Shown here piece after piece: positions 1 through 52,773 of a DNA stretch of 64,000 bases. The DNA is taken from assembly GCA_964636325.1 (NCBI GenBank), contig CAZWRV010000003.1, positions 1,824 to 65,823 on the forward strand, written 5' to 3'. This DNA is from an uncultured Victivallaceae bacterium. GTDB taxonomy: Bacteria > Verrucomicrobiota > Lentisphaeria > Victivallales > GWF2-50-93. A program made the position numbers and the translations under genes. Position 1 is the first letter of the stretch. Each line of letters begins with the position of its first letter. The notes under the pieces were generated by a model. The model saw nothing but the letters and a program-made list of their open reading frames with translations, made no database searches and was not told where the DNA came from.

Positions 1-3000
1 ATCCGCGGCCAGCCGCGCCCCTACGGCGCGGGAATCGACATGGGCTGCGACGAGTTCGCCGACTCCGACAACGACGGCCTCGCCGACTGGTGGGAGCTCG
101 AACACTTCGGCGACCTCGCCGCCTCCGACGGCACCGGCGACTTCGACTCAGACACCTACTCCGACATGGCCGAATACCTCGCAGGTTCCAATCCGACAAA
201 GCCCGAGAGCAAGCCCTTGTACACCATCACATTCACCGCTTCTGCGGGCGGTGTCCTCACTTGTCCTCCAAGTCCTCCCTGTCCTCCCGCTCCTTCAATC
301 GTCCTCACCGCCCGCCACGGCTTCGACGCCCAATCCGTCACCGCCGCGCCGGACGATGGTTACCAGTTCACAGGATGGTCCGGCGCCGCAACCGGAACAA
401 TGAACCCCCTCAAAATCCGCAACGTCACCTCCGATATGTCTGTCACTGCTAATTTCGCAGTAAAAACATACACAGTAAATATTTCCGCAGGTTCTGGCGG
501 AAAAATTGAAGGTGCCGCGATTCAGGTTGTGAATCACGGCACGGACACCGCCGCAGTCGAGGCAGTGCCGGACGAAGGCTACTCTTTCATAGGCTGGTCC
601 GTCGATTACATCGGCACCGAAAACCCGCTCGCAATTCCGAACGTCACTTCAAACATGAATATCACCGCCAACTTTGAATTGAAGACTTATACCGTCACAT
701 ATTCCGCAGGGCCGGGCGGTTCGATCAGCGGCGAGTCGCCGCAGACCGTGAACCACGGCGCTGACGGCACCCCTGTCACCGCAGTTCCAGACGACGGCTA
801 CCGCTTCATAGGCTGGAGCGACGGCTCCACCGCCAATCCCCGCGCCGACGAAAACGTCACGGCGGACATAAATGTCACCGCGAACTTCGAACAGGCTTAT
901 CGGGTTGAATTCCGCGCCCTTACCGGTGGAAGGCTCATCGGCGAGGCGGTCCAGCTCGTCCCGCCCGGCGGCTCGTGCTCGCCGGTGACCGCGGTGGCGG
1001 ACGCAGGATGGCATTTTACCCGATGGATCGTGTCCGGCGACAATTATTCCATCGACAATCCCCTGACAATTTCAAACGTCCAGTCCGACATGCTTCTTGA
1101 AGCGGCATTCCATGCGGACGCCGCCGGGCTTTCCGTCAACGGCGGCAGGCTGTATACCAATTCACGGGACATCGTCATTGATCCATTGACCTGCCAGTTA
1201 CCGGAAATAAGGATAGGCTCATCCCCGACCTTGCTTGACAGCGTTGAGGTTCAGAATCCACTCGAACCATTCGTCTACACGCTCCCTGACAAAGGGGATG
1301 GCAGATATATGCTCTATTTCCAATATTATGATTCTGGAGTCTCGTGCAGCGACATCATAGGCAAATCGGTGATGCTTGACACGCTTGCGCCTTCCGTGAC
1401 TATAACACAACCAACCAATGGCGAAACCACCGACCAGGGTTATATTGATCTTCAGGCGCGGGTCTACGATCCCGACCCCGCATCGCTCGGGGAAAGCAGG
1501 CCTGGGAGTGCACTCATTGTGCGGATCAACGGCAAACCGTTCTACGCAATGGACGAGGATATTGTGAGGGACGACAGGTTCAAGCTCAATCCCGGGGAAA
1601 ACACAATAAGCGTCGAGGACGAGGACGAGGCAGGAAATATCTCGTCCGCGACGGTCACGGTGACGTGCGATCCATCAACGGATACCACGGCTCCGGCATT
1701 GTCCGATGTAAATCTCGAAGGAGTTACCGTCCTCCCCGCGAACCTCTCGAAATTCATGCTCCTCGGCGGCATCGACGACTATTTCTCAGACGTCCGCGTA
1801 ACAGTGAATGGCGGAGATCCCATAACCTGTTCCGTTTCCAAGGACTTGGCCGGGAATTGCCAGGCCAGCGCGGTTCTCCCGCTTGAAGAAGGATTGAACA
1901 GCATAGAAGTCACCGCGTTTGACGCCGCAAGAAACACGGACGTCAGGTCGTACTCCGTGGACAAATCCGACAAATACCGCATCGAAATCATATCACCCGA
2001 GGATGGAGCGTTCGCAAACGGAACCGCCACGGACGTAACGGGCTACGTGTGGGAACCTGGCTGGGGCACCCAGGACGAGGATCCGCTGGCCTCCGTGACG
2101 ATAAACGGCGTCGAGTGCGTCATCGGCAGCCCGGATACCGAAGGCAAGCGCAACTTCAGCGCCACAGTCCCGCCAGCCGCGGACGGCGCGGCCACACCAC
2201 TGAAATTCACGGTTTCAACAACAAGCGGCGCGAATGCACCCAATATGTCTCTTAGCCATCTCGACGGTTATGCGATAACAGAATGCTCGAGGACCATGCT
2301 GACATACAACGCCCCGCACAACTTCATTCACAGGTCCGAAGGCCCAGGTTGGTCGTCAGACTGGTCTATCAGAAATTCAATTGGAAACAGCACATATGAA
2401 TGGGAACCGGATTATTCTTGTGCAAAAAGCTGTTACTCTGAAGTTATTAAAACACACTGCAAATCGCCACACTTTGATGACAATGACTGGGACGATGGAA
2501 CTCCAACAGGAAATCCCGACCCGAATCCACCATCCAGTCCCAGCATCTCACCCATTTTCAAAGTCTGCGAGGAAGAGACCCTGCAAATCCCCTGCTATTA
2601 TTATTGTTGGGGGACTGATTACTATTATGAATATGCTGCATCTTCCACGTTTAATAAAACGAACACAACCCTTTCGTTAAACGTTCCGAAAAAATATCAG
2701 GACGCTGGAGCTACTAATCTTGTTTTGTATTTCAGCGGGATAGAGGGGATTCCAGATATTTCAATGCTCAAGTTCAATGGGCAATCACCGATCTTCTATG
2801 ACAATGCCGCAAAAACCGCAGGATATTTTATTCCCGCTGGAACAAAATCTATCACAGTCAGCAAAGGTTCATTTAACTGGGATGAATTACCGGAATATGC
2901 GGCTGACAGTGGAACCATTCCCTACTATCTCAGATATTTTGGTTCGTTGGTCTCATATGAATTCTTTGTAGAAAAGAAAAAGATCGAATTCAATAATTAT

Positions 3001-4041
3001 TACATTAAAGATATTATCACATTGAAATTACCACCTGCGGTTAGGCGCTTTTACAGTGAGCCAGAGGGACAAAGAAGCTATACAACAATACTTAATGTTA
3101 AGGCAAACAAAGACATGAAATATCGCCTCATCATTAGTCGAACCAACGGTTCTAAAGGTAGTGCCGTTTTCGAGTATGGTGAATTTCCTGGACAAAGAGA
3201 TATTGAATATTTGGGGAAGGGGATTGAAGAAGAAGTGAAAGTAATTGGGACCGAGGAAAGCGATTTAGAAGATAATTTATCGATTATTGTAAAGGACGAA
3301 TATTGGAATGATTTACCGAGCAACCAGATTAAAGCTTATAGAATTATTAAGAAGCCTAATGGATCAATTGAAGAAATACCCGTCGGAGCTATCAATTTTA
3401 TTGTTTTCAGTAAAATCATAAATGATTTCGAGTCTAGCGAAACTCAACATAAAGACACAAATGCTTCATGTATAAAATGCGCTAAACAACAGAATAATGA
3501 TCTTCTTCCACCTAAACATGTTCATTATGCAGTTCCTCCTGATTACGATGAAATCACGCCATGTGATCATGGTGAATATAATTTTATCTGTAAACATTGT
3601 AGCTCCAATTGTTTCAGATGTTGTTTGAAAGTTAAATATGGTGGAAATCAAGATGATTACCATGAATTAACAATTGGAGCTAAAACTGTTGAGGATGATC
3701 ATGGATTTGGGCTTTCATCATTTTCATTTAGAGAATATGTTAAAGATAAATGGAAAATCGTCCTAGGAAAAGAAGACGATCCACAATATTCATTTATCTA
3801 CGATAAAATCCCAAAAGATGGCTCTTGTGCAACAAGCATATCGACTCCCTTGAATCATGGTGTTATTACCCACGGGTGCCGCCATAATGATGAAGATGGA
3901 AATATTACAAAAGAAGAAATATTATATTGGGATCCTAAATATGCCGAAAATTGTTGGGCTGAAATGTTGGAAAAGGAAGAGGAAGTGTTACCCCCTAATA
4001 TATATATATTAGAAATATTATATAAAATGCAAAGCCAATGA
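1..4041 (+). CDS. Giant secreted/surface repeat protein, 5-prime partial, with an AT-rich C-terminal module of unknown family
   Basis: Frame 1 is open from base 1 with no stop before the ATG at 40. The upstream residues ..RPYGAGIDMGCDEF resemble the G-x-x-ID-x-G-x-x-E motif that closes parallel beta-helix surface proteins, so the gene starts outside the window. It carries Asp-rich DSDNDG / DFDSD TSP3-like motifs, four ~70-aa InlB B-repeat-like modules and Ig-like stretches (LDTLAPSVTITQP.., TAPALSDV..). From about nt 2370 the sequence becomes AT-rich, N/K/I/Y-rich and Cys-clustered with no family I recognise. Confidence 0.8.
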   Translation: MRGQPRPYGAGIDMGCDEFADSDNDGLADWWELEHFGDLAASDGTGDFDSDTYSDMAEYLAGSNPTKPESKPLYTITFTASAGGVLTCPPSPPCPPAPSIVLTARHGFDAQSVTAAPDDGYQFTGWSGAATGTMNPLKIRNVTSDMSVTANFAVKTYTVNISAGSGGKIEGAAIQVVNHGTDTAAVEAVPDEGYSFIGWSVDYIGTENPLAIPNVTSNMNITANFELKTYTVTYSAGPGGSISGESPQTVNHGADGTPVTAVPDDGYRFIGWSDGSTANPRADENVTADINVTANFEQAYRVEFRALTGGRLIGEAVQLVPPGGSCSPVTAVADAGWHFTRWIVSGDNYSIDNPLTISNVQSDMLLEAAFHADAAGLSVNGGRLYTNSRDIVIDPLTCQLPEIRIGSSPTLLDSVEVQNPLEPFVYTLPDKGDGRYMLYFQYYDSGVSCSDIIGKSVMLDTLAPSVTITQPTNGETTDQGYIDLQARVYDPDPASLGESRPGSALIVRINGKPFYAMDEDIVRDDRFKLNPGENTISVEDEDEAGNISSATVTVTCDPSTDTTAPALSDVNLEGVTVLPANLSKFMLLGGIDDYFSDVRVTVNGGDPITCSVSKDLAGNCQASAVLPLEEGLNSIEVTAFDAARNTDVRSYSVDKSDKYRIEIISPEDGAFANGTATDVTGYVWEPGWGTQDEDPLASVTINGVECVIGSPDTEGKRNFSATVPPAADGAATPLKFTVSTTSGANAPNMSLSHLDGYAITECSRTMLTYNAPHNFIHRSEGPGWSSDWSIRNSIGNSTYEWEPDYSCAKSCYSEVIKTHCKSPHFDDNDWDDGTPTGNPDPNPPSSPSISPIFKVCEEETLQIPCYYYCWGTDYYYEYAASSTFNKTNTTLSLNVPKKYQDAGATNLVLYFSGIEGIPDISMLKFNGQSPIFYDNAAKTAGYFIPAGTKSITVSKGSFNWDELPEYAADSGTIPYYLRYFGSLVSYEFFVEKKKIEFNNYYIKDIITLKLPPAVRRFYSEPEGQRSYTTILNVKANKDMKYRLIISRTNGSKGSAVFEYGEFPGQRDIEYLGKGIEEEVKVIGTEESDLEDNLSIIVKDEYWNDLPSNQIKAYRIIKKPNGSIEEIPVGAINFIVFSKIINDFESSETQHKDTNASCIKCAKQQNNDLLPPKHVHYAVPPDYDEITPCDHGEYNFICKHCSSNCFRCCLKVKYGGNQDDYHELTIGAKTVEDDHGFGLSSFSFREYVKDKWKIVLGKEDDPQYSFIYDKIPKDGSCATSISTPLNHGVITHGCRHNDEDGNITKEEILYWDPKYAENCWAEMLEKEEEVLPPNIYILEILYKMQSQ
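220..1116 (+). repeat. Four tandem ~70-aa coding repeats (InlB B-repeat / Listeria-Bacteroides repeat type) inside the giant protein
   Basis: The units are aa 61-141, 143-213, 216-284 and 287-357. Each follows the pattern Y-T/R-V-x-F/Y..G G.I......V.HG.D...TA.PD.GY.F.GWS....NP....NVTSDM.VTANF. Confidence 0.7.
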
Positions 4042-4106
4042 TTATCTTGTATCTTATGAAGTAATTTATTCTCATTTTTTAAATATATTTATGAAAGGGA
4101 TTGCTT

Positions 4107-4940
4107 ATGGTTACATGGCATTATTTTATCATAATAATTGTTCTATTTTATACATTTAATATTCAATCAGCTAATGAAAATTATTTTGATGAGAAAATCA
4201 TAATAAGCGAAATATGTATTAAAAAAGAAAATAATGAATATCCTAAATGGTTAGTATTAATTTCTAATTTGAATGAAACGATAAATCTTAAGAATTGGTC
4301 ATTAAGCGATTCGCAAAAATGCTTTTATAAATTTACTGAAAATATAAATATTGAGCCCAAGGGAATATTAATGATATGCTTTTATCCTGATGATACTCCT
4401 TCTTCAGATTTTAAAGATAAAATATCAGCTAATGTTAATCAAATAATCGATATATTCAAATGCGAGCCTTTCGATAGCAAAGGAGAATATAATATCTCAC
4501 AGATATTAATAAATAAAACTGTACCTTTATATTTGAGTTTAGGGGAGAAACAATCGATTCATGAATTAGAGCAAACAACAGGGCCAATGTATAAATGGTT
4601 TTATGATGAATCATTAAAATATATTAAAATAAACAATTATCCTGATAATTACAAATATCCTATTATGAGTATTATGTCACAAATTCCAAGAGAATATGAT
4701 GAAGTGGCATTAATTGATGACAAAAACAATCTTATTTCTTACATTAGCTGGGGGAATCAGGCAAATGTGAAGCCATCGCATGAGTTTAAATGGGAAAAAC
4801 AAGTAAAAGATAATTGTAGCTTATATAGAACTTATCCATTAACTATAAATATAAAATCTACAAATGCAATAATTTTAAAAAGGATATCTAAATCAATATT
4901 CGAATTTGAGAAGGATATAAAAAGTTCATTTTTAAAATAG
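4107..4940 (+). CDS. AT-rich hypothetical protein with an N-terminal hydrophobic anchor/signal and a possible lamin-tail-domain (LTD)-like segment
   Basis: ATG at 4107 is preceded by aaaggga; the ORF track starts at TTG 4101. The N-terminus is WHYFIIIIVLFYTF. The segment IISEICIKK..YPKWLVLISNLNETINLKNWSLSDSQKCFYKF..IEPKGILMICF resembles the LTD pattern (I.E...... e.iEL.N....vdLsgW.Lsd....y.f....l.pg....v). Its base composition matches the AT-rich tail of the upstream gene. Confidence 0.55.
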   Translation: MVTWHYFIIIIVLFYTFNIQSANENYFDEKIIISEICIKKENNEYPKWLVLISNLNETINLKNWSLSDSQKCFYKFTENINIEPKGILMICFYPDDTPSSDFKDKISANVNQIIDIFKCEPFDSKGEYNISQILINKTVPLYLSLGEKQSIHELEQTTGPMYKWFYDESLKYIKINNYPDNYKYPIMSIMSQIPREYDEVALIDDKNNLISYISWGNQANVKPSHEFKWEKQVKDNCSLYRTYPLTINIKSTNAIILKRISKSIFEFEKDIKSSFLK

Positions 4941-5214
4941 CAAGCTTGGTAATATCGCTGGGGGGAAGGGACGTTCACACTTAAGTGGCTGAAATAAAAT
5001 GGGATGCGGCGGATATGACGGCGCATGTCCGGGGGGAAGCTTGTACTTTCAGGCCGGTAAATCCACGCATCCCTATATCCACCCTAACTATATCCACCCC
5101 CGGGGCTCGGTAACATCCATAACAACAGATAGTTATGAACATAATATGCCCAGATAATAGCGTTAGAATGAAACAAAGAGGCATCCATTTGACTTTAAGG
5201 ATAGCAATGCTATA

Positions 5215-5919
5215 TTGTCCTCCATGACCACCAGCCGACAATTTCAGGGCGGGCGCAGCTACCATGTGACCCAGCGCTGCCACGGGCGGGCTTTCCTGCT
5301 GGGCAAGGACGTGGATCGGCGCGCCTACCTGAATCTGCTGTGGTCGGGCAAGCAGACGTGGCCGGTGTCGCTGCTGGCGTACAACCTGACCAGCAATCAT
5401 GTGCATCTGCTGGTGTCGGCCGAGGAGCTTGGGGCGCTGAGCGGATTCATGGCCCATGTGTCGGGAGCGATGGGCCGCAACTACAACCGCCGCAAGGAAC
5501 GGGCCGGTGCGTTCTGGGAGGGGCGTTACCGGACGACGCTGATCCAGGACGGCAGCCACCTGTCGCGTTGCCTGTTCTACATCGAGATGAACATGGTGCG
5601 GGCGGGGGTGGTGGATCATCCCCGGGAATGGCCTTGGAGCTCTTACCGGGAGTTGTGCGGGGAACGCCAGCGGTATCGGCTGCTCGACCAGGAACTGCTT
5701 TTGCGCAAGCTAGACTGCGGCCCGGACCGCGGGCTGTTCCGGCAATGGTACCGGGCCACCCTCGACCAGATGAGCGAGCGCCGGGCGGAGCTCCGCCGTG
5801 AGCCATGGTGGGCCGGAGCCAAGGTCGTAGGCGACCGCCAGTTCGTCACCCACCAGGTTGACAAGCGCCGCGCCGAGGATATCGTCGAACTGGAAGATGG
5901 CACCTGCACTTGGGCTTAA
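5215..5919 (+). CDS. HUH/Y1 transposase, IS200-like / REP-associated tyrosine transposase (RAYT)-type
   Basis: The HUH motif is in SNHVHLLVS and the catalytic-Tyr helix motif is in RCLFYIEMNMVRAGVV, followed by WPWSSY. Length is ~230 aa. No tnpB or other IS gene is adjacent. The gene is GC-rich and flanked by AT-rich DNA. Confidence 0.7.
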   Translation: MSSMTTSRQFQGGRSYHVTQRCHGRAFLLGKDVDRRAYLNLLWSGKQTWPVSLLAYNLTSNHVHLLVSAEELGALSGFMAHVSGAMGRNYNRRKERAGAFWEGRYRTTLIQDGSHLSRCLFYIEMNMVRAGVVDHPREWPWSSYRELCGERQRYRLLDQELLLRKLDCGPDRGLFRQWYRATLDQMSERRAELRREPWWAGAKVVGDRQFVTHQVDKRRAEDIVELEDGTCTWA

Positions 5920-6102: not shown

Positions 6103-6500
6103 ATGAAAAGCCATTTCCGCAAGCGCAAACTCCTTCACCTTGATCGAACTGCTTGTCGTGATCGCGATCATCGCCATTCTCGCAAGCCTGCTAATGCCGG
6201 CCCTCAGCAGTGCCAGGGCAGAGGCCCGCCAGATCAGCTGCCTCAACGACATCAGGCAGCTTTATTCCGCCTCATACAACTACATCCAGGACAACAGCGA
6301 GTGGGTGCCTTTGCACGTCATGCCGGTCAACGGGAGGAACTGACCCACCTGGGTGGCGCTTCCAAGCTATCATAAATATTTGAGCGTGCCGGCCAATGAT
6401 CCCAACAAATAACGTATATTTCTTCGACGGCCACGGCACCGGGTTGCACATCAACGATCCGGAACACAGCAAGGAAGCCGCATACTGCATGTGGAAATAG
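6103..6500 (+). pseudogene. Decayed prepilin-type N-terminal cleavage/methylation (H-X9-DG / DUF1559-like) gene
   Basis: The leader MKSHFRKRK is in frame 1. The cleavage/methylation helix [24 protein letters not shown] is in frame 2, with no start of its own and a stop at 6343. The C-terminal remnant NNVYFFDGHGTGLHIND is in frame 3 and ends at 6500. It parallels [15 protein letters not shown] of the intact paralogue at 18086-18904. Total span is ~400 nt against ~820 nt for the intact gene. Confidence 0.6.
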
Positions 6501-6577
6501 ATGTCGCCGGTCGTACTAAAAAAAAGCGGCTCGGCATTTGAGGCCGAGCCGCCGTTGTGCCTCATGACGGAGACGTC

Positions 6578-7009
6578 TTATTTCTTCCCCTTGACGCTCC
6601 ACTCGTAGAGGTCGAACGTCTCGCCCTCCTTCTCGAGCTCCTTGTACTTCTTCTTGCCGGAGTATTGGACGAAGGCGTCCGTCAGATTCCAGATCACTCC
6701 GCCGAACTCGAGGTATACGCCCTTGACCTCGCCGGAGACGGAACCGACTTCCGCGTCCGAGAGGTCCAGGATGTTGGTGTCGGTGTCAGGCAGGGGTTTG
6801 CCTGTGATCGTGACGACGAGCTCCTTCTTGTCGATCTTGTTCCACTTGAACGTGATCTTCTCGACGGTCTTTTCCTTCTCGTTGTCGTCGACCTCCTTTA
6901 TCGTGAAGACGGCGGATCCGCCCTTCTCCCCCTTGGGTGTGATCTTCGCATCGCTTTTACTTATGGTATAAGATGCGGTTACGACGTTACAAACGGCTGC
7001 AAGAAAATT
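6578..7009 (-). pseudogene. 143-codon open frame with host-like codon bias but no ATG/GTG/TTG start; probable 5-prime-truncated small exported/lipoprotein gene
   Basis: My own minus-strand translation gives NFLAAVCNVVTASYTISKSDAKITPKGEKGGSAVFTIKEVDDNEKEKTVEKITFKWNKIDKKELVVTITGKPLPDTDTNILDLSDAEVGSVSGEVKGVYLEFGGVIWNLTDAFVQYSGKKKYKELEKEGETFDLYEWSVKGKK*. Stop TAA is at 6578-6580. An in-frame TAA sits at 7010-7012 directly upstream. Codons strongly end in G/C, as in neighbouring genes. It is absent from the ORF track because the only start-type codon is a GTG about 30 codons from the end. FLAAVC looks like the tail of a signal/lipobox. Confidence 0.4.
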
Positions 7010-7038: not shown

Positions 7039-7146
7039 TTACCCCCCCCCAAGAAGTGCAGTTTTCGGGCAATAACCCTAAGGCCACAATACCCTTAACT
7101 TGGATTGACATTCTTACATGTCAAGAGAGGGAGGGGGGGGGGGTAA
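7039..7146. repeat. Inverted repeat built on homopolymer tracts: TTACCCCCCCCC ... GGGGGGGGGTAA
   Basis: The C9 run is at 7042-7050 and the G11 run at 7133-7143. The 12-nt arms at 7039-7050 and 7135-7146 are exact reverse complements, separated by ~84 nt that has stops in all three minus-strand frames. Confidence 0.7.
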
Positions 7147-7187
7147 TTATTTTCTATTTTTTTTTCAACTTCCTCAAACTCGATCAT

Positions 7188-7219
7188 CTTTGTCGTGAGC
7201 TTTGTCGCGAGCTTTGTCG
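7188..7219 (-). repeat. Three tandem 12-nt units containing CGACAAAG (read on the minus strand); copy A of a two-locus motif
   Basis: CTTTGTCG occurs at 7188, 7200 and 7212 on the plus strand with an exact 12-nt period. The same CGACAAAG x3 array with a 12-nt period occurs at 29107-29138. A perfect 8-bp hairpin GGTTGAGC-CAT-GCTCAACC lies at 7230-7248. Confidence 0.65.
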
Positions 7220-7444
7220 TCTTCCGGAGGGTTGAGCCATGCTCAACCACGGCTCAGCACCCGCCTTCGCTGGGAAGCTACGGCGCGGCAGGCGGCTTCG
7301 CCCTCCATAGGATACGTTGCACGATCCAAGGGCGACATTAATGCCGAGCTGGGGCTCGGCGTTCCCAGGGCTCGTCCGTCAGTGTTTTGTAATTGCCGCC
7401 ATACCTCTTATAGTATGTGATTTTACGGGCGCTTCCTACTCTTT

Positions 7445-18085: not shown

Positions 18086-18904
18086 TCAGAAGTCGTCCGG
18101 CCTGTAGCTTTTATATGCCTCTCGGAACGGAAGGGCGTCTCCATGCCCGTCCCAGAACAAGTAGTTAGCGACCGATCCGTGCCTCATCACCGCCGAATAA
18201 AAGAGCTTGCTGTTGATCATCGGAAACTGTCCGTCCATCGCGTTCGGATGGTAGAAGACCTGCGAACTTCCCCGGCATTCGCCGAAGAACACCCGCTTGT
18301 CCGGCTTCTTGATGTCGCTGACTCGCGCAAGCTCGACTTCTGAGGGGGTGTCGGAGTGCATCGTCCGGAAATTGGAGTCGTAGCCGCCGTTTAGGGCGCG
18401 GGACTTCGGAGGCGAAAAGGGCTCGGTGTTTATGCCGTAGGCGATCGTCCACCAGTTCCAGGCGCCGCTGTCCGCCTCAGGGGACGGATATGACATGCAG
18501 CCCCAGAAGGGATAGCCGGAATTCTTCATGCAATACTTGTCCTTTATTTCGTTCATCCATGGAAGCCCGTCCGAGTTCGCCAGGCCAGCTGCGCCCGGGG
18601 CGATGTATTGCATCAGGAATGACGGCCAAAGCACCTGTTGGTCGCAAGAAGGGACGAATGTCTTGTTCCGGGGGGGAGTCACATATTCGTTGTAGTCGGA
18701 TGCATATAGGAATTCGGTCGTCCCTATCTGCTTGAGCGTGTTCGCGCACTGTATCTTCTTGCCCGTGTCCCTGGCCCGCTTAAGGGCCGGCAGCAGCATC
18801 GCGGACAGTATCGCGATGATCGCGATCACCACTAGAAGTTCAATAATGGTGAATTGTCTCCCCCTTTTGGCCGGTGGGCATGGCCCTCTGATTCTGCGCT
18901 TCAT
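18086..18904 (-). CDS. Prepilin-type N-terminal cleavage/methylation domain protein with a C-terminal H-X9-DG motif (DUF1559-like)
   Basis: The N-terminus is [28 protein letters not shown]. The C-terminus is [16 protein letters not shown], which is H, nine residues, then DG. It overlaps the LacI stop by 4 nt. Confidence 0.85.
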
Positions 18905-23393: not shown

Positions 23394-24743
23394 TCATCTA
23401 TCTCCAATTTCATCCTGGGGAATTAAATTTTTCAGGATTTCGCGGGACTCCCTGTCTCCTGCCGTCGCCGCCTTTGCGAGCCATGCGGCCCCGGCCTTGG
23501 CATCCTTCGGCGTCCCCTCCCCTTTCAGATACGCCAGCGCAAGCCTCCTCTGCGCCTTCGGATCCCCGCCCTCGGCGGCCCGCTTGAACCAGTAGAACGC
23601 CGCCTTGGGATCCTTCGCCACGCCCCTGCCGTCCGAATAGCAGCTCCCTATGTTGAACTGCGCGTGCAGGTTCCCCCTTCTGGCGGCGTCGAGAAAATAG
23701 ATCGCGGCCTTCCTGTCGTCCGCATCCTGCCCGATCCCCTCGGCCGCCATGAAACCGAGGTTGAACAGCGCATAATGGTTGCCCTTTTCGGCGGCCTTCT
23801 CAAAGCACTGCCGCGCGCGGCGGATGTCAGTCTCGACCATCTTGCCTTCCATGTAGATTTCGCCGAGCTTCACAAGGGCCATGCAGTTGCCCGCCTCGGC
23901 CGCCTTTGCATATAGCCCGCATATCCTGGCCGGATCGCGCTCCAGCCCGCCGATCCCGTTCTCATGGCAGAACGCGAGTTTGGCAAATGCCTCGCCGAAA
24001 TCCTGCTCGGCCGCCCTTTCCAGCCAGAAGACCATCTTCTTCTCGTCCTTCTGGCATAGCTTCCCGGAATAGTAGAAGTCTGCGAGCATGCACATTCCGC
24101 CCGGATCCCCTGCCTCGGCGGATCTGCCGAGCAGTTCGAAGGCCCTCCCCATATCCACAGCAAGCCCCCCCTCGCCTTCCATATATGCCTCGGCAAGCTT
24201 TAGATAGGCGGGTGGGAACCCCTCGTCCGCAAGTTCCTTCAGCATCTCCACCGCGCGGACGGGATCTCTGTTTACTAAGACGATCTCCTCACCCTCCGGA
24301 GAGTCCGCCGCGGCAAGTCCGTTCCGGAAGGTCAGCGCCACATTGTATTTCGCCTGTGGGACTCCGGCCTTGCCGGCGAGATCATACCACTTGAACGCCT
24401 CAAGCCTGTCCTCCTTCACGCCAAGCCCCTTGTCGAAGCAGACCCCAAGGTTGAACTGCGCCTCCGGCAGCCTCTGAAGGGCGGCCTTCCTGAACCAGAA
24501 CGCCGCAAGCGAATAGTCCTTCTTCCTGCCCTCGGAGCCGTAGAAATATATGTTGCCGAGCCTGAACTGCGCCCTCGCGTCGCCCGCCCTCGCCTCCTGC
24601 TCGATCCTTCCGAACGAATCCGCCGCGGCGGCGTCTTTGGAAGAAGATTCGTCCCCGCCGGCAACTACGCTGGGCGCGGCGAGCAGCATGCCATAAATGG
24701 CGATGCTGCCCAAGATCCACATCAATTTGCGACTGACAGGCAT
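23394..24743 (-). CDS. Secreted Sel1-type (TPR-like) repeat protein
   Basis: It has a signal peptide and about 10 repeats of the Sel1 pattern, for example AQFRLGNIYFYGSEGRKKDYSLAAFWFRKAA and AQFNLGVCFDKGLGVKEDRLEAFKWYDLAG. Confidence 0.85.
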   Translation of the reverse strand: MPVSRKLMWILGSIAIYGMLLAAPSVVAGGDESSSKDAAAADSFGRIEQEARAGDARAQFRLGNIYFYGSEGRKKDYSLAAFWFRKAALQRLPEAQFNLGVCFDKGLGVKEDRLEAFKWYDLAGKAGVPQAKYNVALTFRNGLAAADSPEGEEIVLVNRDPVRAVEMLKELADEGFPPAYLKLAEAYMEGEGGLAVDMGRAFELLGRSAEAGDPGGMCMLADFYYSGKLCQKDEKKMVFWLERAAEQDFGEAFAKLAFCHENGIGGLERDPARICGLYAKAAEAGNCMALVKLGEIYMEGKMVETDIRRARQCFEKAAEKGNHYALFNLGFMAAEGIGQDADDRKAAIYFLDAARRGNLHAQFNIGSCYSDGRGVAKDPKAAFYWFKRAAEGGDPKAQRRLALAYLKGEGTPKDAKAGAAWLAKAATAGDRESREILKNLIPQDEIGDR

Positions 24744-24750
24744 TCGAACT

Positions 24751-24862
24751 CCTGAAACTCGCCTGAAGTAACGCAGACATTCCTGTCTGTGATTCCGCAG
24801 GTAAGAATACCTGCGCTACTTTAAGTCTCACACCGATAAAACTGTCCGCCGCGGCAGACAGA
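24751..24862 (+). repeat. Dispersed palindrome-rich repeat, short copy (C1)
   Basis: It matches the reverse complement of 28787-29009 in two blocks. The first is 77 nt with about 4 substitutions plus a 2-nt indel; the second is ~33 nt with 3 substitutions. It contains CGCAGACA-TTCC-TGTCTG(T/C)G and CTGTCCGCCGCGGCAGACAG palindromes. It lies 8 nt upstream of the Sel1 gene start. Confidence 0.75.
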
Positions 24863-25054
24863 GCGGCACTCCTCTGGAACTCGTCCGTCTTTACCTCGCA
24901 TCTTCGCCTGCCCAGGGAAGGACAAAGAGACGAAGACATATGACGAAGAATCTCACGATGCGGGATGGAGAGCTTAATTTTCCCCGTCTGGGCGGGCGAT
25001 TCAAGCGTTTTTTTGGCGGCGAATACTTCCGCCGGTAGGATCATGAGGAGCCGT

Positions 25055-28608: not shown

Positions 28609-28786
28609 AAGAAATACAACGGTTGAATAGAGTTCAACCCTCCATCCGCCGGTCGGCGGATTAGAATCCTTGTCCTTAATCGTCATGCGTAATCATATGC
28701 CGATTCGGGAATCAAGCGTTCGACGATTGCGGACTGCGATTACGGTTCACGAATAACAAGAAGTTATCATAGGAGAGAATGGCCAT

Positions 28787-29009
28787 CTGTCTGCCGCGGC
28801 GGACAGTTTTGCCGGTGTAAAACCTAGGTTTTTCCCTGCGGGAAAAAGGCGCCCTTACGGCGCGCAGGTAGCTTGCGCGCGCCGCGCGCAAACTACTTTT
28901 GGTAAAAACGTTTTCCAAGTCGCACCGTAAGGGACTTAAAGTAGCGCAGGTATTCTTCTGCGGGATCGCAGACAGGAATGTCTGCGTTACTTGAGGCGAG
29001 TTTCAGAGG
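28787..29009 (-). repeat. Dispersed palindrome-rich repeat, long copy (C2) carrying a ~113-nt nested palindromic insert (28820-28932)
   Basis: It is the reverse complement of C1 plus an insert. The insert contains TTTTTCCC-TGC-GGGAAAAA (28829-28847), TTGCGCGCG-C-CGCGCGCAA (28873-28891) and flanking CCCTTACGG / CCGTAAGGG (28852-28860 / 28925-28933). Confidence 0.75.
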
Positions 29010-29106
29010 AGTGCTCATCTGCGAACCTCGCAGTTCTGTCAACCAGAAACTTTCGGGAGGGACGCCGGCCTCGGCGTCCGCGGACACCGAGGCCGGTGCC
29101 CCTCCC

Positions 29107-29138
29107 CGACAAAGTTAGCGACAAAGCTACCGACAAAG
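29107..29138 (+). repeat. Three tandem 12-nt units containing CGACAAAG; copy B of the two-locus motif, 25 nt upstream of the sulfatase start
   Basis: CGACAAAG occurs at 29107, 29119 and 29131. It is preceded by a 44-nt near-perfect palindrome at 29059-29102 (GGGACGCCGGCCTCGG-CGTCCGCGGACA-CCGAGGCCGGTGCCCC). It is followed by AT..TC.AGTTT, as in copy A. Confidence 0.65.
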
Positions 29139-29163
29139 ATTTTCAAGTTTCGGGGGAGTCGAG

Positions 29164-30543
29164 TTGAATCCCAGAGGCATAATACTGATACAGTCCGACC
29201 AGCACCGCGCCGACTGCCTCGGCGTGTCCGGACATTCCATTGTCAAGACGCCGCATCTTGACAGGCTTGCCTCGGAAGGAATCATCTTCCGCGAGGCATA
29301 CTGCCCCTCCCCCGTCTGCGTTCCGGCGAGGACTTCGCTTCTTTGCGGGCGCTGGCCGCTACAGCACGGGGCCGTTACGAACTTCGACAGCGAGAGCTCG
29401 AAGGTTCTGCAGCCCGACGCTGACAACTTCGCGAAAACTCTTAAGGCGCACGGACTTTCGCTGGACTTCATCGGGCGCTGGCATGTTCATCCCCGCCTCA
29501 AGCCGACAGACTTCGGATTCGACAGCTTCACAAGCGACTCCGGGTATGGTGCATGGAGGATTGCCAAGGGCGCGGCACCGGTGAAATGCGGCTGGCAGGG
29601 AGCCGTCGACCATCACATAAAACCCGAGGAGTCAAGGCTCCATTGGCTCACCGACATCCTTATAGCCATCATGAGGCGAAGGATCGCCGAGGGAGGCCGC
29701 TTCTTCATAAGCATGGACATTCAGGAACCGCACCTTCCGAACCTTGTTCCGGAACCATATGCCTCCATGTATCCGCCGGAAAGCATCCCGCCATGGGGAA
29801 GCTTCTCAGATGATTTTAAGGGGAAACCATACATCCAAAGACAACAGCTTAAATCCTGGGGCATCGAGGACATGACCTGGGACGAGTGGGCTAAATCCGT
29901 CTCCCTCTACCTGGGACAGCTCTCGCTAATCGACGCCCAGATCGGAAGGGTGCTTGCCGAGCTCGACAGGCTCGGCGCGTCCGACGAAGTTCTCCTCGTC
30001 TACACCTCCGACCACGGCGACATGTGCGGCGGGCACAGGATGCTGGACAAGCATTTCATCATGTATGACGACGTCGTGAAAGTCCCGCTGCTGATGCGCT
30101 GCCCGGCGCTCATAAAGGCGGGCCTTGATCACGAGGGATTTGTCTCCAGCGCGATCGACCTCGCCGCAACATTCTGCGCCGCCATGGGCGCCGCCATACC
30201 CGCCTCCTTCTCCGGAAAAAGCCTCATGCCGTGCATGGCCGGAGAAACAAAGCCGATCCGAGACGACATCCTCTGCACCTACTGCGGAAACCAGTTCGGC
30301 CTGTTCAGCCAGAGGATGGTCCGGAACAAGAAATGGAAATATGTCTGGAACGCCACAGCGGAGGACGAACTTTACGACTTGTCAGAGGACAGGCACGAAC
30401 TGAAAAACCTCGCCGCCTCGGAAAAACACGCCACAATTCTGGGCGCCATGCGGAAAAGGCTCTGGGAATGGATGGAAGAGACCCGCGATCCCCTCAGAAA
30501 CGAGTGGATCCGCAGACAGCTCCGCGACGGGAAAAAGATTTGA
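29164..30543 (+). CDS. Formylglycine-dependent sulfatase (arylsulfatase family), no signal peptide
   Basis: The motifs are ILIQSDQHRADCLG and the signature CPSPVCVPARTSLLCG (C-x-P-x-R). The TTG start is preceded by GGGGAG. The N-terminus goes straight into the catalytic domain. Confidence 0.85.
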   Translation: MNPRGIILIQSDQHRADCLGVSGHSIVKTPHLDRLASEGIIFREAYCPSPVCVPARTSLLCGRWPLQHGAVTNFDSESSKVLQPDADNFAKTLKAHGLSLDFIGRWHVHPRLKPTDFGFDSFTSDSGYGAWRIAKGAAPVKCGWQGAVDHHIKPEESRLHWLTDILIAIMRRRIAEGGRFFISMDIQEPHLPNLVPEPYASMYPPESIPPWGSFSDDFKGKPYIQRQQLKSWGIEDMTWDEWAKSVSLYLGQLSLIDAQIGRVLAELDRLGASDEVLLVYTSDHGDMCGGHRMLDKHFIMYDDVVKVPLLMRCPALIKAGLDHEGFVSSAIDLAATFCAAMGAAIPASFSGKSLMPCMAGETKPIRDDILCTYCGNQFGLFSQRMVRNKKWKYVWNATAEDELYDLSEDRHELKNLAASEKHATILGAMRKRLWEWMEETRDPLRNEWIRRQLRDGKKI

Positions 30544-51451: not shown

Positions 51452-52116
51452 TTCCTCTGACCCATCTTTAACAGCTCGTAGTAGTCGTTGTTCAGATTCC
51501 GCCAGGGGGTTTCCTCTATGCAGTAGATGCTGTCGTTCACCCTTGTTATGGCGGGATCCCTCGCGGCGGCCTTGAACATGTTTGCGACCTCCGCGGCCTT
51601 CCTTTCCGGATTTACAGCGCCGCCGATTATGGCCTGGTTCATCGTGACCTTCAGTCTTATATACATGTCCTTGGCGACCGAAGGTGTGATCTTGAGGTCG
51701 GGTGCGAACCTCTGGAGGAACCTCGGATGGACGAAGGCCACCGCATGGTGATCCTTTCCGTCAAGGGGGATGGACCAGTATGTCGTCGATCCGGAGAGGT
51801 ATATGGCCCTGTTGCCCTCCCCGCGCATGAGCACCTCATATTCGAAGGAGACGTCGTCCAGCCATTCCGTCTGCCTGTTCTTGTCCGTCTTGGACACGGT
51901 CGTGAAGGTCACGTTGATCACAAGCCACATCTCTATCTCTTTTACGATTCCGGCGACATTCTGGACATTTATCTGAGGCGTCTGCTGGAACTGGCAGTCG
52001 AACTTGAAGTTCTTGAAATATTCCTCCTGGGCGCTGAGGGACAGGCAGGCGGAAAACGCCGCTGCCAGGAGAATCCCGAATGCGGCCTTAGCGAATTTGG
52101 CATCCGTATACGGCAT
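51448..52116 (-). CDS. Small exported protein, paralogue B (possible lipoprotein), first-gene pair of the pilus-like operon
   Basis: The signal peptide has AAFSAC, a lipobox-like sequence. It aligns along its whole length with the gene at 52123-52773, for example DKNRQTEWLDDVSFEYEVL, TMNQAIIGGAVNPERKA and YYELLK. Confidence 0.7.
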   Translation of the reverse strand: MPYTDAKFAKAAFGILLAAAFSACLSLSAQEEYFKNFKFDCQFQQTPQINVQNVAGIVKEIEMWLVINVTFTTVSKTDKNRQTEWLDDVSFEYEVLMRGEGNRAIYLSGSTTYWSIPLDGKDHHAVAFVHPRFLQRFAPDLKITPSVAKDMYIRLKVTMNQAIIGGAVNPERKAAEVANMFKAAARDPAITRVNDSIYCIEETPWRNLNNDYYELLKMGQRK

Positions 52117-52122
52117 CCCTAT

Positions 52123-52773
52123 CTATCTCCGTACTGGCTTGATAAGCTCGTAATAGTCGTAGTTCAGGTCGCGCCAAGGCGTCTTGTCGATGCCGTAGAC
52201 GCTGTCGTTCACCCTCAATATGTTCGGATCTGTGGCGGCCTTCTTGAACGCATTGGCGACTTCCATAGCCTTGCGCTCAGGATTTACCGCCCCTCCGATG
52301 ATGGCCTGGTTCATGGTGACCTTTATCCTTATGTAGGTGTCCTTGGCAGCGGAGGGGGACGTGGACTTCAGTTCCGGAGCATAACGCTGCAGGAACCTGG
52401 GGTGTATGAAACCCACGGAATGATGCTCCTTCCCGTCGAGGGGGATGGCCCAGTAGGTGGTGGTTCCGGAAAGATAGACGGGCCCCTTGAAGCCCGGAAC
52501 CAGCACCTCGTATTCGAAGGAGACGTCGTCGAGCCACTCGGGCTGCCTGTTCTTGTCAGTCTTGCTGACGGTCGTGCATGTCACATTGATCACAAGCCAC
52601 ATGTCGAGCTTCGCGACCGGAAGGCCGGCCACGTTGGGGGCGTTTATCTGAGGGGTCTGCTGGAAGCTGCAGTCAATCTTGAAGTTCTTGAAGAAGTCCT
52701 GCTGCTGCGGGAATACGGAGAGGCAACAGGACAAGGACAGCACAACAAGCAGGAGCTTGAGGACAAGCTTCAT
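52123..52773 (-). CDS. Small exported protein, paralogue A, first gene of the pilus-like operon
   Basis: The signal peptide is MKLVLKLLLVVLSLSCC. It shares blocks with paralogue B: FFKNFK.DC.FQQTPQIN, MWLVINVT.TTVSKTDKNRQ.EWLDDVSFEYEVL and VTMNQAIIGGAVNPERKA.EVAN.FK.AA.DP. Confidence 0.7.
   Translation of the reverse strand: MKLVLKLLLVVLSLSCCLSVFPQQQDFFKNFKIDCSFQQTPQINAPNVAGLPVAKLDMWLVINVTCTTVSKTDKNRQPEWLDDVSFEYEVLVPGFKGPVYLSGTTTYWAIPLDGKEHHSVGFIHPRFLQRYAPELKSTSPSAAKDTYIRIKVTMNQAIIGGAVNPERKAMEVANAFKKAATDPNILRVNDSVYGIDKTPWRDLNYDYYELIKPVRR

What the first reader, a model, noticed from the sequence alone, without database searches (positions are those of the whole stretch)
7188..7248. Shared upstream module, copy A: palindrome plus three 12-nt-spaced CGACAAAG boxes (see copy B at 29059-29160)
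Read on the minus strand, this locus has a perfect hairpin (GGTTGAGC-ATG-GCTCAACC). Ten nt later it has CGACAAAGCTCG-CGACAAAGCTCA-CGACAAAGATGATCGAGTTTGAGG. The only other place in the window with this array is directly upstream of the sulfatase gene, where it reads CGACAAAGTTAG-CGACAAAGCTAC-CGACAAAGATTTTCAAGTTTCGGG. Both have the same box, the same 12-nt phasing, the same AT..TC.AGTTT tail and a preceding palindrome. Both point toward a downstream gene. This looks like a conserved cis-regulatory array, either a multimeric DNA-binding-protein site or a structured leader, rather than chance.
Basis: seen in the sequence. Interest (0 to 1): 0.55.

Follow-up and report, generated by a model that had tools for sequence, protein, structure and literature searches.

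The report
Orphan repeat arrays from selfish cassettes
The two triple-repeat blocks are stray copies of a short DNA repeat found across one large bacterial group (PVC bacteria); in its complete form the repeat brackets a small gene of a long-mysterious protein family, so the blocks are probably not switches for the neighbouring genes but are a clue to what that protein family does.

Summary
There are two perfect arrays of three CGACAAAG boxes at 12-nt spacing (7188-7219 minus, 29107-29138 plus), and none in 100 shuffles. They are not a private upstream module of two genes. Pattern scans found 189 such arrays in 160 genome and metagenome loci. Every locus with a taxon name is Lentisphaerae, Kiritimatiellae, Verrucomicrobia or Planctomycetes, apart from one MAG labelled Bifidobacterium. 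89% of arrays have exactly three boxes. Flanks are unrelated, neighbouring genes are diverse, and orientation relative to genes is random. Arrays pair only tail-to-tail: a partner lies behind in 54/129 and ahead in 0/129. Complete pairs bracket a ~0.8-kb gene for a tandem four-helix-bundle protein (PF05635, the 23S-rRNA intervening-sequence / Avd family). All five such genes fetched by protein homology alone carry the arrays. A second protein clade carries a different 12-nt-spaced box (CTCGTACAC). Short ORF-less pairs, internal-deletion copies and solo arrays are common, and the two window copies are solo. Best reading: these are iteron-type binding sites, functioning as the ends of a selfish cassette and probably read by its own protein. 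Copy B's tail incidentally supplies the sulfatase ribosome-binding site. The preceding hairpins are not a family feature. I found no published description of this.

The parts
7188..7219 (-). Copy A: solo array of three iterons (CGACAAAG at 7219-7212, 7207-7200 and 7195-7188; spacers CTCG and CTCA)
   Evidence: No partner box within 1 kb behind it and no 4HB homology anywhere in the window. Short-read contigs of the same organism end exactly at 7219.
7166..7187 (-). Copy A tail (ATGATCGAGTTTGAGGAAGTTG): outer flank shared with copy B, ending in an SD-like GAGGAAG plus TTG that opens only a 4-codon frame (TTG AAA AAA AAA TAG)
   Evidence: By inference this is the lineage-specific outer segment of the element end; other lineages have their own conserved outer flank.
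7230..7248 (-). Perfect 8-bp hairpin GGTTGAGC-ATG-GCTCAACC, 10 nt before copy A; probably not part of the repeat unit
   Evidence: No conserved upstream hairpin in the family.
29107..29138 (+). Copy B: solo array of three iterons (CGACAAAG at 29107, 29119 and 29131; spacers TTAG and CTAC)
   Evidence: Short-read contigs of the same organism start at 29097. No partner array within 1 kb.
29139..29160 (+). Copy B tail (ATTTTCAAGTTTCGGGGGAGTC); its GGGGGAG (29152-29158) is the Shine-Dalgarno sequence for the sulfatase TTG start at 29164
   Evidence: independent gene calls use the same TTG start and give a 459-aa protein.
29055..29105 (+). Long GC-rich hairpin immediately before copy B. Its 5' foot (AACTTTCGGGAGGG, from 29048) resembles one decayed reverse box plus the GGAGGGCAGG that follows the left array in complete cassettes (weak evidence)
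   Evidence: comparison with L246 and L177. Speculative.
29164..30543 (+). Neighbouring sulfatase gene (context only, not part of the element)
   Evidence: Pfam PF00884, E = 3.5e-40.

Best explanation
The two arrays are solo copies of a dispersed repeat found in PVC bacteria. The repeat is a 36-bp block of three head-to-tail 12-bp iterons with consensus tC-GACAAAG-nTyrC and a T-rich exit. In its complete form the block occurs as a tail-to-tail inverted pair. That pair immediately brackets a ~0.8-kb gene for a protein made of two tandem four-helix bundles (PF05635/TIGR02436), the family of the ORF inside 23S-rRNA intervening sequences and of the DGR accessory protein Avd. Shown: the architecture, its spread, the ORF-less derivatives, and the switch of box sequence with protein clade. 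Inferred: the boxes are double-stranded DNA sites read one per 12 bp by the cassette's own protein. They would serve as the ends of a selfish cassette that is non-autonomous or moved by an unknown route, in the way transposase/TIR or Rep/iteron pairs work. Internal deletions leave 72-88-bp palindromic mini-elements and solo ends scattered in intergenic DNA without regard to neighbouring genes. In this window the arrays are therefore passengers in two intergenic regions. The outer tail of copy B happens to provide the sulfatase ribosome-binding site. If the cognate protein is made elsewhere in this genome, bound arrays could act as roadblocks next to the gene ends, but that is speculation.
For: 1. 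Family size and taxa. After removing Asp-Lys coding repeats, 189 arrays remain in 160 loci. All named taxa are Lentisphaerae, Kiritimatiellae, Verrucomicrobia, Planctomycetes or 'PVC group', except one MAG labelled Bifidobacterium.
2. Fixed anatomy. 168 of 189 arrays have exactly three boxes. In the unbiased genome scan, position -1 is C in 57/60, spacer position 2 is T in 111/128 and spacer position 5 is C in 120/128, while the other spacer positions are free.
3. Strict polarity. A perfect reverse box lies within 200 nt behind 54/129 arrays and ahead of 0/129. Preferred gaps are 0 and 15-17 nt.
4. Cassette. L216 and L092 show reverse array, ORF, forward array. The ORF is PF05635 (E = 9e-27, two domains) and TIGR02436. 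A profile search hits PDB 2gsc (E = 3.5e-8). The AF2 model has pLDDT 88, and Foldseek gives 2gsc TM 0.87 and Avd 4dwl TM 0.84.
5. Unbiased confirmation. Five homologues fetched by protein alone (L246, L255, L266, L267, L268; 55-80% identity) all carry the arrays: the CTTTGTC array mostly 10-25 nt before the ATG (about 100 nt in L266), and the GACAAAG array a few nt after the stop, decayed in L246. Overall 12 of 13 4HB segments have an array on at least one side in this configuration, and none has the opposite configuration.
6. Derivatives. L175 and L129 carry frameshifted or truncated ORFs. L177 and L246 carry the same internal deletion, keeping only the N- and C-termini, yet have perfect arrays. 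One MAG holds at least 6 copies of an 88-bp mini-element with related centres.
7. Co-variation. A second clade of double-4HB proteins (33-37% identity to clade 1) is flanked in 4 of 4 loci by GTGTACGAG x2 / CTCGTACAC x2, also at 12-nt period.
8. Protein recognition rather than hairpin pairing. Spacer identity between the two arms is the same when spacer order is swapped (7.46 versus 7.5 of 10), and box variants are not mirrored in 23 of 26 pairs listed.
9. Repeat behaviour. Most homologues sit on ~1-kb contigs, and assemblies of the window's own organism break at both arrays.
10. No link to particular genes. Orientation is random, neighbours are diverse, and a closest-listed homologue of the window sulfatase (P0006, 59% identity) has no array in front of it.
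Against: No enzyme for mobility is encoded in the cassette, and four-helix-bundle proteins of this family have no known catalytic or sequence-specific DNA-binding activity. No target-site duplication is visible at 14 pairs. Each exact protein variant examined sits at a single locus that is stable across samples, so no direct presence/absence evidence of movement was obtained. Perfect boxes alongside diverged spacers in solo copies look like purifying selection at each site, which fits a host function at least as well as junk. The full-length gene in L246 has decayed arrays while the deletion copy next to it has perfect ones. It is not known whether the window's genome encodes a clade-1 protein; there is none in these 64 kb. 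The gene-context statistics rest on my own crude ORF caller, of which 17 of 20 calls checked had Pfam support.
Confidence: 0.6

Rival explanations
1. Host-function reading. The tandem four-helix-bundle protein is a chromosomal sequence-specific DNA-binding protein, such as a nucleoid, insulator or roadblock factor. The arrays are its selected binding sites in intergenic DNA, and the sites flanking its own gene serve autoregulation. Nothing is mobile.
For: Boxes are perfect while spacers drift, both within the window (0/24 versus 4/8 differences) and family-wide. Copy number is fixed at three. The left array lies between any promoter and the ATG of the 4HB gene, a typical autorepressor position. 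Cassettes are stable at one locus across many samples. No TSD is seen. Arrays sit close to gene ends (median 72 nt).
Against: Internal-deletion pseudogenes keep perfect arrays on both sides (L177, L246). 88-bp ORF-less palindromes recur at unrelated loci in one genome. Arrays show no preference for any class of intergenic region or any gene function. A site after the stop codon in mirror orientation is not expected for simple autoregulation. Assemblies collapse the cassette onto ~1-kb contigs as they do for repeats.
Confidence: 0.25
2. RNA reading, by analogy with 23S-rRNA intervening sequences. The two arms pair in a transcript to give a ~36-bp stem that RNase III cuts, excising the cassette RNA from host transcripts. 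The 12-nt period matches the pitch of an A-form helix. Solo arrays would be dead halves.
For: The same protein family sits inside rRNA IVSs, which are bounded by inverted repeats and cut out by RNase III. The Coxiella IVS even has three tandem heptamers (GACAGAT) before the ORF start (PMC4990558). Paired arms can form a long duplex. Some pairs lie inside apparent operons, for example L088 between the two subunits of a molybdopterin dehydrogenase.
Against: There is no compensatory change between arms. At least 40% of arrays are solo with 300 nt or more of sequence seen behind them, including both window copies. Boxes are conserved far more than spacers, which a stem alone would not require. The arrays are unpaired and unremarkable in single-strand folds.
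Confidence: 0.1
3. The array, with its hairpin and tail, is a shared cis-regulatory module or structured leader that controls the gene downstream of each copy.
For: Copy B lies 25 nt upstream of the sulfatase start and its tail contains the SD. About 45% of family members do point at a co-directional gene start 15-90 nt away.
Against: 46 of 84 arrays point into the 3' end of a convergent gene, ten of them confirmed by Pfam. There is no common gene function, no conserved hairpin, no Rfam family and no special fold. Copy A has no intact downstream gene. In complete cassettes the gene reads from the CTTTGTC side, the opposite orientation to copy B and the sulfatase.
Confidence: 0.05
4. REP/BIME-type element serviced by the IS200-like (RAYT) Y1 transposase encoded 1.3 kb from copy A (5215-5919).
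For: The ORF matches Y1_Tnp (E = 1.8e-10). REPs are also abundant intergenic repeats, and both window copies follow GC-rich hairpins.
Against: The unit is a direct repeat, not a palindrome. RAYT homologues occur in only 2 of 242 loci, one of which holds only a coding-type repeat. Hairpins are not a family feature.
Confidence: 0.02

Closest known systems
23S-rRNA intervening sequences (IVS) carrying an S23p ORF (Coxiella, Leptospira, Xanthomonas and others)
   Same: The ORF belongs to the same protein family (PF05635/TIGR02436) and is bracketed by inverted repeats. Short direct repeats lie just before the ATG (three GACAGAT heptamers in Coxiella). The ORF is often decaying. IVSs are regarded as selfish and possibly once mobile (PMC4990558).
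   Different: These cassettes lie in ordinary intergenic DNA, not in helix 9, 25 or 45 of 23S rRNA. The protein is a tandem double bundle. Each inverted repeat is built from three phased 12-bp iterons whose arms do not co-vary as a stem. Hundreds of ORF-less pairs and solo arrays exist.
MITEs and other non-autonomous derivatives of insertion sequences (for example Correia/NEMIS, ERIC)
   Same: They are short intergenic elements with terminal inverted repeats, derived by internal deletion from a coding parent. They occur in many copies at unrelated sites and break short-read assemblies.
   Different: The parent has no recognisable transposase, no target-site duplication is seen, the ends are iteron arrays, solo ends are very common, and the same box occurs across several phyla.
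Iteron and direct-repeat operator systems: Rep-iteron origins, omega repressor heptads, SARP heptamer triplets (PMC5930380, listed)
   Same: Identical short boxes are repeated head-to-tail in fixed phase, often three times, and are read by an oligomerising protein. The box sequence co-varies with the protein.
   Different: The period is 12 bp rather than 7, 11 or 22 bp. There is no replication origin or promoter at a fixed distance, the candidate reader is a four-helix bundle rather than an HTH, RHH or wHTH protein, and the sites are scattered genome-wide.
Avd, the accessory protein of diversity-generating retroelements
   Same: Each half of the cassette protein has the Avd/S23p fold (Foldseek 4dwl TM 0.84 and 8ub7_B). 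Avd is a nucleic-acid-binding partner in a selfish or retro-element system (PMC10053308).
   Different: No reverse transcriptase, template repeat or variable repeat lies nearby. The protein is a double domain, whereas S23p is described as a homopentamer (PMC4990558).
REP/BIME elements with RAYT transposases
   Same: They are abundant, short and strictly intergenic, and are often found next to gene ends.
   Different: REPs are palindromic hairpins with a GTAG head and are species-specific. These arrays are direct repeats with no RAYT association.

Membership tests
PVC GACAAAG iteron arrays (family defined in this report) | Three (C)GACAAAG boxes at exact 12-nt spacing, C at -1, T at spacer position 2, C at spacer position 5 | tested here: met
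   Both window copies fit fully; family consensus.
PVC GACAAAG iteron arrays (family defined in this report) | Intergenic location, with unrelated flanks between copies | tested here: met
   Both copies are intergenic. Only 44 nt are shared between them.
Complete four-helix-bundle cassette (inverted arrays plus PF05635 ORF) | A partner array in tail-to-tail orientation behind the array | tested here: not met
   No box pair within 1 kb behind either copy, so both are solo ends.
Complete four-helix-bundle cassette (inverted arrays plus PF05635 ORF) | PF05635/TIGR02436 ORF between the arms | tested here: not met
   Six-frame HMM search of the whole window found no hit at E <= 0.01.
23S-rRNA intervening sequence | Inserted in a 23S rRNA helix | tested here: not met
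   Rfam at gathering threshold finds only a tRNA in the window. Family members lie between protein-coding genes.
23S-rRNA intervening sequence | Excised from the transcript by RNase III at a stem formed by the inverted repeats | not testable with these tools
   Needs RNA-end mapping. Arms show no compensatory change.
MITE / non-autonomous transposon | Terminal inverted repeats and derivation from a longer coding element by internal deletion | tested here: met
   Met for the family: L177 and L246 versus L216 and L267. The window copies are single ends only.
MITE / non-autonomous transposon | Target-site duplication | tested here: not met
   No direct repeat flanks 14 pairs.
MITE / non-autonomous transposon | Insertion polymorphism between strains or a cognate transposase | tested here: inconclusive
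   Loci compared across samples were nearly identical. No transposase lies in the cassette.
REP/BIME-RAYT | Palindromic unit, and repeats flanking a RAYT gene | tested here: not met
   The unit is a direct repeat. tblastn with the RAYT hits 2 of 242 loci.
Transcription-factor operator or structured leader upstream of regulated genes | Consistent position and orientation relative to gene starts, or a conserved RNA fold | tested here: not met
   38 co-directional versus 46 convergent downstream genes. No Rfam hit. z = -0.47 for the copy A region.

The most novel reading that the evidence does not exclude
Four-helix-bundle proteins of the S23p/Avd family are sequence-specific readers of phased 12-bp iterons. 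Together with their inverted iteron arrays they would form a previously unrecognised class of transposase-less, self-propagating cassette. The rRNA intervening sequences would be one specialised offshoot of this class, and the cassettes have seeded PVC genomes with hundreds of orphan binding arrays.
Probability: 0.3. Interest if true: 0.85.

Novelty: new variant of a known kind. Interest (0 to 1): 0.62.

Why it matters
The ORF inside 23S-rRNA intervening sequences, and its many free-standing 'four helix bundle protein' relatives, have had no assigned function since the early 1990s. Their only characterised cousin is Avd of diversity-generating retroelements. Here the gene comes with a defined, clade-specific and easily synthesised candidate ligand: three 12-bp boxes on each side. 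That turns the question into a simple binding experiment. It also explains a class of intergenic repeats that fragment assemblies of Lentisphaerae, Kiritimatiellae and Verrucomicrobia. For annotation, it warns against reading such arrays as regulons of the neighbouring sulfatase and glycan-degradation genes.

Tried and rejected
- Rfam at gathering threshold on the whole window and at E-value threshold on both loci gave only a tRNA and chance microRNA-like hits on the copy B hairpin.
- Conserved upstream hairpin: rejected, because family-wide the upstream and downstream 70-mers fold equally.
- Sigma-70 promoter or terminator at a fixed distance: no conserved position beyond -2/-1 and +1..+3 within 150 nt.
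- Coding reading of the 12-nt (4-codon) period: the two window copies are open in different frames, and the true Asp-Lys coding repeats found by the scan were removed.
- RAYT/REP link: rejected.
- Recurrent neighbouring gene family: none. The largest cluster is generic two-component proteins.
- Conserved body upstream of arrays: blastn finds only other arrays and low-complexity repeats.
- Heptamer tandem repeats as a defining companion: present near only 11 of 142 arrays.
- Target-site duplications: none seen.
- Phage or plasmid carriage: 2 hits in 2.9 million viral contigs, and none for the protein in the phage or plasmid collections.
- Conservation at the orthologous sulfatase locus: not testable, because the closest homologue is only 62% identical and the one homologue examined (P0006, 59%) has a different neighbourhood.
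- Selection test on orthologous copies across samples: too little divergence.
- Literature searches for the box sequences and for repeats in PVC genomes found no description.

Full report
**1. The observation**

On the minus strand the window reads GGTTGAGC-ATG-GCTCAACC (7248-7230), then 10 nt, then CGACAAAGCTCG-CGACAAAGCTCA-CGACAAAG (7219-7188), followed by ATGATCGAGTTTGAGGAAGTTG. On the plus strand CGACAAAGTTAG-CGACAAAGCTAC-CGACAAAG occupies 29107-29138, followed by ATTTTCAAGTTTCGGGGGAGTCGAG and the TTG start of a sulfatase gene at 29164.

Six of the seven CGACAAAG octamers in 64 kb lie in these two arrays. The three-box pattern with up to three mismatches finds only these two sites, and none in 100 shuffles. 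The repeat finder pairs 7176-7219 with 29107-29150. The 24 box positions are identical between the copies, while 4 of the 8 spacer positions differ.

So the description is accurate and far from chance. The one weak point is the claim that both copies point at a gene. Copy A is followed by a 107-nt insert with C11/G9 inverted arms and then by a secreted-protein-like ORF that has no start codon.

**2. Not an RNA family and not a structured leader**

Rfam gives only a tRNA at gathering threshold, and chance hairpin hits at relaxed threshold. In single-strand folds the arrays stay unpaired. The copy A region folds no better than shuffles (z = -0.47). The strong fold at copy B is entirely the hairpin in front of it.

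**3. The arrays belong to a large family**

I scanned one genome per species for GACAAAG-N5-GACAAAG-N5-GACAAAG, and scanned metagenomes for the C/T-flanked version. After removing Asp-Lys coding repeats, 189 arrays remain in 160 loci.

- Taxa. Every locus that carries a taxon name is Lentisphaerae/Victivallales, Kiritimatiellae, Verrucomicrobia (including Akkermansia-labelled MAGs), Planctomycetes or 'PVC group'. The only exception is one MAG labelled Bifidobacterium, which is probably mis-binned.
- Consensus. In the unbiased genome scan the consensus is tC-GACAAAG-nTyrC, repeated, with T-rich sequence after the last box. C at -1 occurs in 57/60, T at spacer position 2 in 111/128 and C at spacer position 5 in 120/128.
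- Copy number. 168 of 189 arrays have exactly three boxes, even when a fourth box with one mismatch is allowed.
- Viral contigs. Only 2 of 2.9 million carry the pattern.

**4. No relation to the neighbouring genes**

I used a simple ORF caller weighted by third-position GC. Of 20 of its calls checked, 17 had Pfam support.

- The gene the array points at is co-directional in 38 cases and convergent in 46. The gene behind the array is co-directional in 33 and divergent in 34.
- Ten arrays confirmed by Pfam lie 14-154 nt after the stop codon of a convergent gene. These genes include peptidase S41, NAD synthase, phosphoglucomutase, an MFS transporter and amidohydrolases.
- Neighbouring genes form no recurrent family.
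- There is no conserved upstream hairpin, no conserved position beyond the immediate edges and no link to the IS200-like RAYT gene that lies near copy A.

The 'AT..TC.AGTTT' tail is not a family feature. In this genome it ends in an SD-like purine run. A similar GAGTTTCAGGAG precedes the ATG of the Sel1-repeat gene at 24743.

**5. A strict polarity led to the answer**

Arrays lie close to the gene boundary they point at (median 72 nt) and far from the one behind them (median 207 nt). The distance ahead is the shorter one in 36 of 48 cases.

A perfect reverse box (CTTTGTCG) occurs within 200 nt behind 54 of 129 arrays and ahead of none. Arrays therefore pair only tail-to-tail. Preferred gaps are 0 and 15-17 nt, with a tail of gaps up to about 800 nt.

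Reading the longer gaps showed a gene. In L216 and L092 the arms bracket an ORF of about 255-260 codons. It scores as two tandem 23S_rRNA_IVP domains (PF05635, E = 9e-27) and as TIGR02436 'four helix bundle protein'.

- L175 and L129 hold frameshifted or truncated versions of this ORF.
- L177 holds a 190-nt internal-deletion copy that keeps only the first ~25 and last ~10 codons.
- L032, from a Pirellulaceae MAG, holds a one-domain version.

**6. Independent confirmation**

I searched the protein database with the L216 ORF and obtained 566 hits at E <= 1e-10. Most sit on contigs of about 1 kb, as collapsed repeats do. I fetched the DNA around five homologues of 55-80% identity, chosen only for contig length.

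All five carry the arrays. The CTTTGTC array lies mostly 10-25 nt before the ATG, and about 100 nt before it in L266. The GACAAAG array lies a few nt after the stop, though it has decayed in L246. L246 also has, next to the full gene, the same internal-deletion derivative as L177, with perfect arrays.

Overall, 12 of 13 four-helix-bundle segments have an array on at least one side in this configuration, and none has the opposite configuration.

The exception is a paralogue in L177 with 33-37% identity to clade 1. It is flanked by a different repeat: GTGTACGAG twice on the left and CTCGTACAC twice on the right, again at 12-nt period. Three further members of that second clade (1074 hits; 65-80% identity) have the same CTCGTACAC arrays. 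The box sequence therefore changes with the protein clade while the phasing stays the same.

**7. What the protein is**

A profile of 30 homologues hits the Xanthomonas S23p pentamer 2gsc (E = 3.5e-8) and Bacteroides 2rld. An AlphaFold model (pLDDT 88) shows two four-helix bundles joined by a disordered linker. Each bundle superposes on 2gsc (TM 0.87), 2rld, and Avd of the Bordetella phage DGR (4dwl, TM 0.84).

The literature treats the rRNA IVS as a selfish element of unknown origin whose S23p ORF has no known role. It notes inverted repeats, RNase III excision and three tandem heptamers before the ORF in Coxiella (PMC4990558). PF05635 is regarded as the Avd family (PMC10053308). I found no description of the iteron-flanked cassettes or of the arrays.

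**8. How it most likely works**

Shown:
- the cassette architecture;
- its ORF-less derivatives, namely 72-88-bp palindromes with related centres, of which at least six copies occur in one MAG;
- solo arrays, at least 40% of all arrays where 300 nt or more behind them could be inspected;
- co-variation of box sequence with protein clade.

Inferred: the boxes are duplex-DNA sites read one per 12 bp by the cassette's own protein, and they act as the ends of a selfish cassette. Three points favour protein recognition over arm-arm pairing.
- Spacers are no more complementary in register than out of register (7.46 versus 7.5 of 10).
- Box variants are not mirrored in 23 of 26 pairs listed.
- Boxes are conserved far more than spacers.

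Against mobility:
- there is no enzyme in the cassette;
- there is no target duplication;
- each protein variant sits at one stable locus across samples.

A host-function reading therefore remains a serious rival. In that reading the protein is a chromosomal DNA-binding factor, with selected sites near gene ends and around its own gene. An IVS-like RNA-stem role is possible for paired arms only.

**9. The window copies**

Both are solo. No partner lies within 1 kb and there is no four-helix-bundle homology anywhere in the 64 kb. Short-read assemblies of the same organism end exactly at them, at 7219 and 29097. That suggests further near-identical copies elsewhere in the genome.

The tail of copy B provides the sulfatase Shine-Dalgarno sequence. 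This is best seen as incidental or as exaptation. A closest-listed homologue of the sulfatase (P0006, 59% identity) has no array in front of it and a different neighbourhood.

**10. Verdict**

The finding is real. The gene-specific regulatory interpretation is not supported, although 'multimeric protein-binding site' probably is. The arrays are orphan members of an apparently undescribed, PVC-wide repeat family tied to the 23S-IVS/Avd protein family. I class it as a new variant of a known kind (IVS-like selfish cassettes and their miniature derivatives). Interest is moderate to high because it offers a direct experimental handle on that protein family.

Noticed in passing
window 24744-24871 (-) and 28777-29016 (+): A second shared non-coding module. 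About 75 nt directly upstream of the Sel1-repeat gene (ATG at 24743) recurs at 94-100% identity inside the intergenic region in front of copy B, there split by an insert rich in small palindromes. Both copies fold into a long hairpin (z = -4.2 and -4.7) ending in GAGTTTCAG(A)GGAG. There is no Rfam match.
   Followed up: partly
window about 7039-7146: A 107-nt insert with inverted arms TTA-C11 ... G9-TAA, flanked by AATAA on both sides, lies between copy A and a start-less secreted-protein-like ORF (about 6566-7009, minus). It looks like a miniature insertion that disrupted the gene's 5' end, although homopolymer assembly errors could also be involved.
   Followed up: no
window 5215-5919 (+): An IS200-like Y1 transposase (RAYT-type) ORF (PF01797, E = 1.8e-10) sits next to a low-GC (20-40%) island at about 2500-5000 that encodes a lamin-tail-domain protein. 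The arrays show no link to it.
   Followed up: partly
window 6140-6343 (+) and 18769-18853: A truncated prepilin-type (N-terminal methylation) ORF has a 5' end that repeats, inverted, at 18769-18853 in a full-length DUF1559-like gene (18086-18904). This family is typical of PVC bacteria.
   Followed up: no
L117-L120, L243-L244 (Logan assemblies SRR12969846 and SRR12976788): Short-read contigs of the same organism stop at window positions 7219 and 29097, at or within 10 nt of the two arrays. This is indirect evidence for more copies sharing 31-mers or longer elsewhere in the genome.
   Followed up: partly
L246 2100-2470, L177 175-425, L267, L091: In one lineage the similarity between element ends extends beyond the arrays. 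On the left it reads GGCGCTTCCGGGaatagtGGGGGATTTTCT...; on the right it reads aagaaatcCCCCgc..aaaCCCGGAAGCGCC. The clade-2 cassette in L177 has the same outer motif, so outer ends are shared while inner iterons differ.
   Followed up: partly
L273-L277 (P0301 locus): Across samples the clade-2 cassette and about 90 nt of the adjacent sulfatase 3' end are identical over ~1300 nt, while the next 120 nt of the sulfatase gene differ at 15 positions. This marks a sharp recombination or transfer boundary near the cassette.
   Followed up: no
L020, L026, L049, L070, L073, L095, L181 and others: Some PVC intergenic regions around arrays are built from tandem 6-7-nt repeats (GAACCCT, CTAGCCG, GACTGAA, AATCGT and others) and ~90-100-nt higher-order repeats that include an array. 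These resemble cyanobacterial STRR sequences. They occur near only 11 of 142 arrays.
   Followed up: partly
L127 597-819: One metagenome contig carries 19 consecutive 12-nt units (GACAAAG/GACGAAG-TTTCC). Arrays can therefore expand far beyond three boxes.
   Followed up: no
window 51466-52704: Two ~670-nt tandem copies at 75-86% identity (repeat families D1, D3, D5), presumably an internal duplication within a gene.
   Followed up: no
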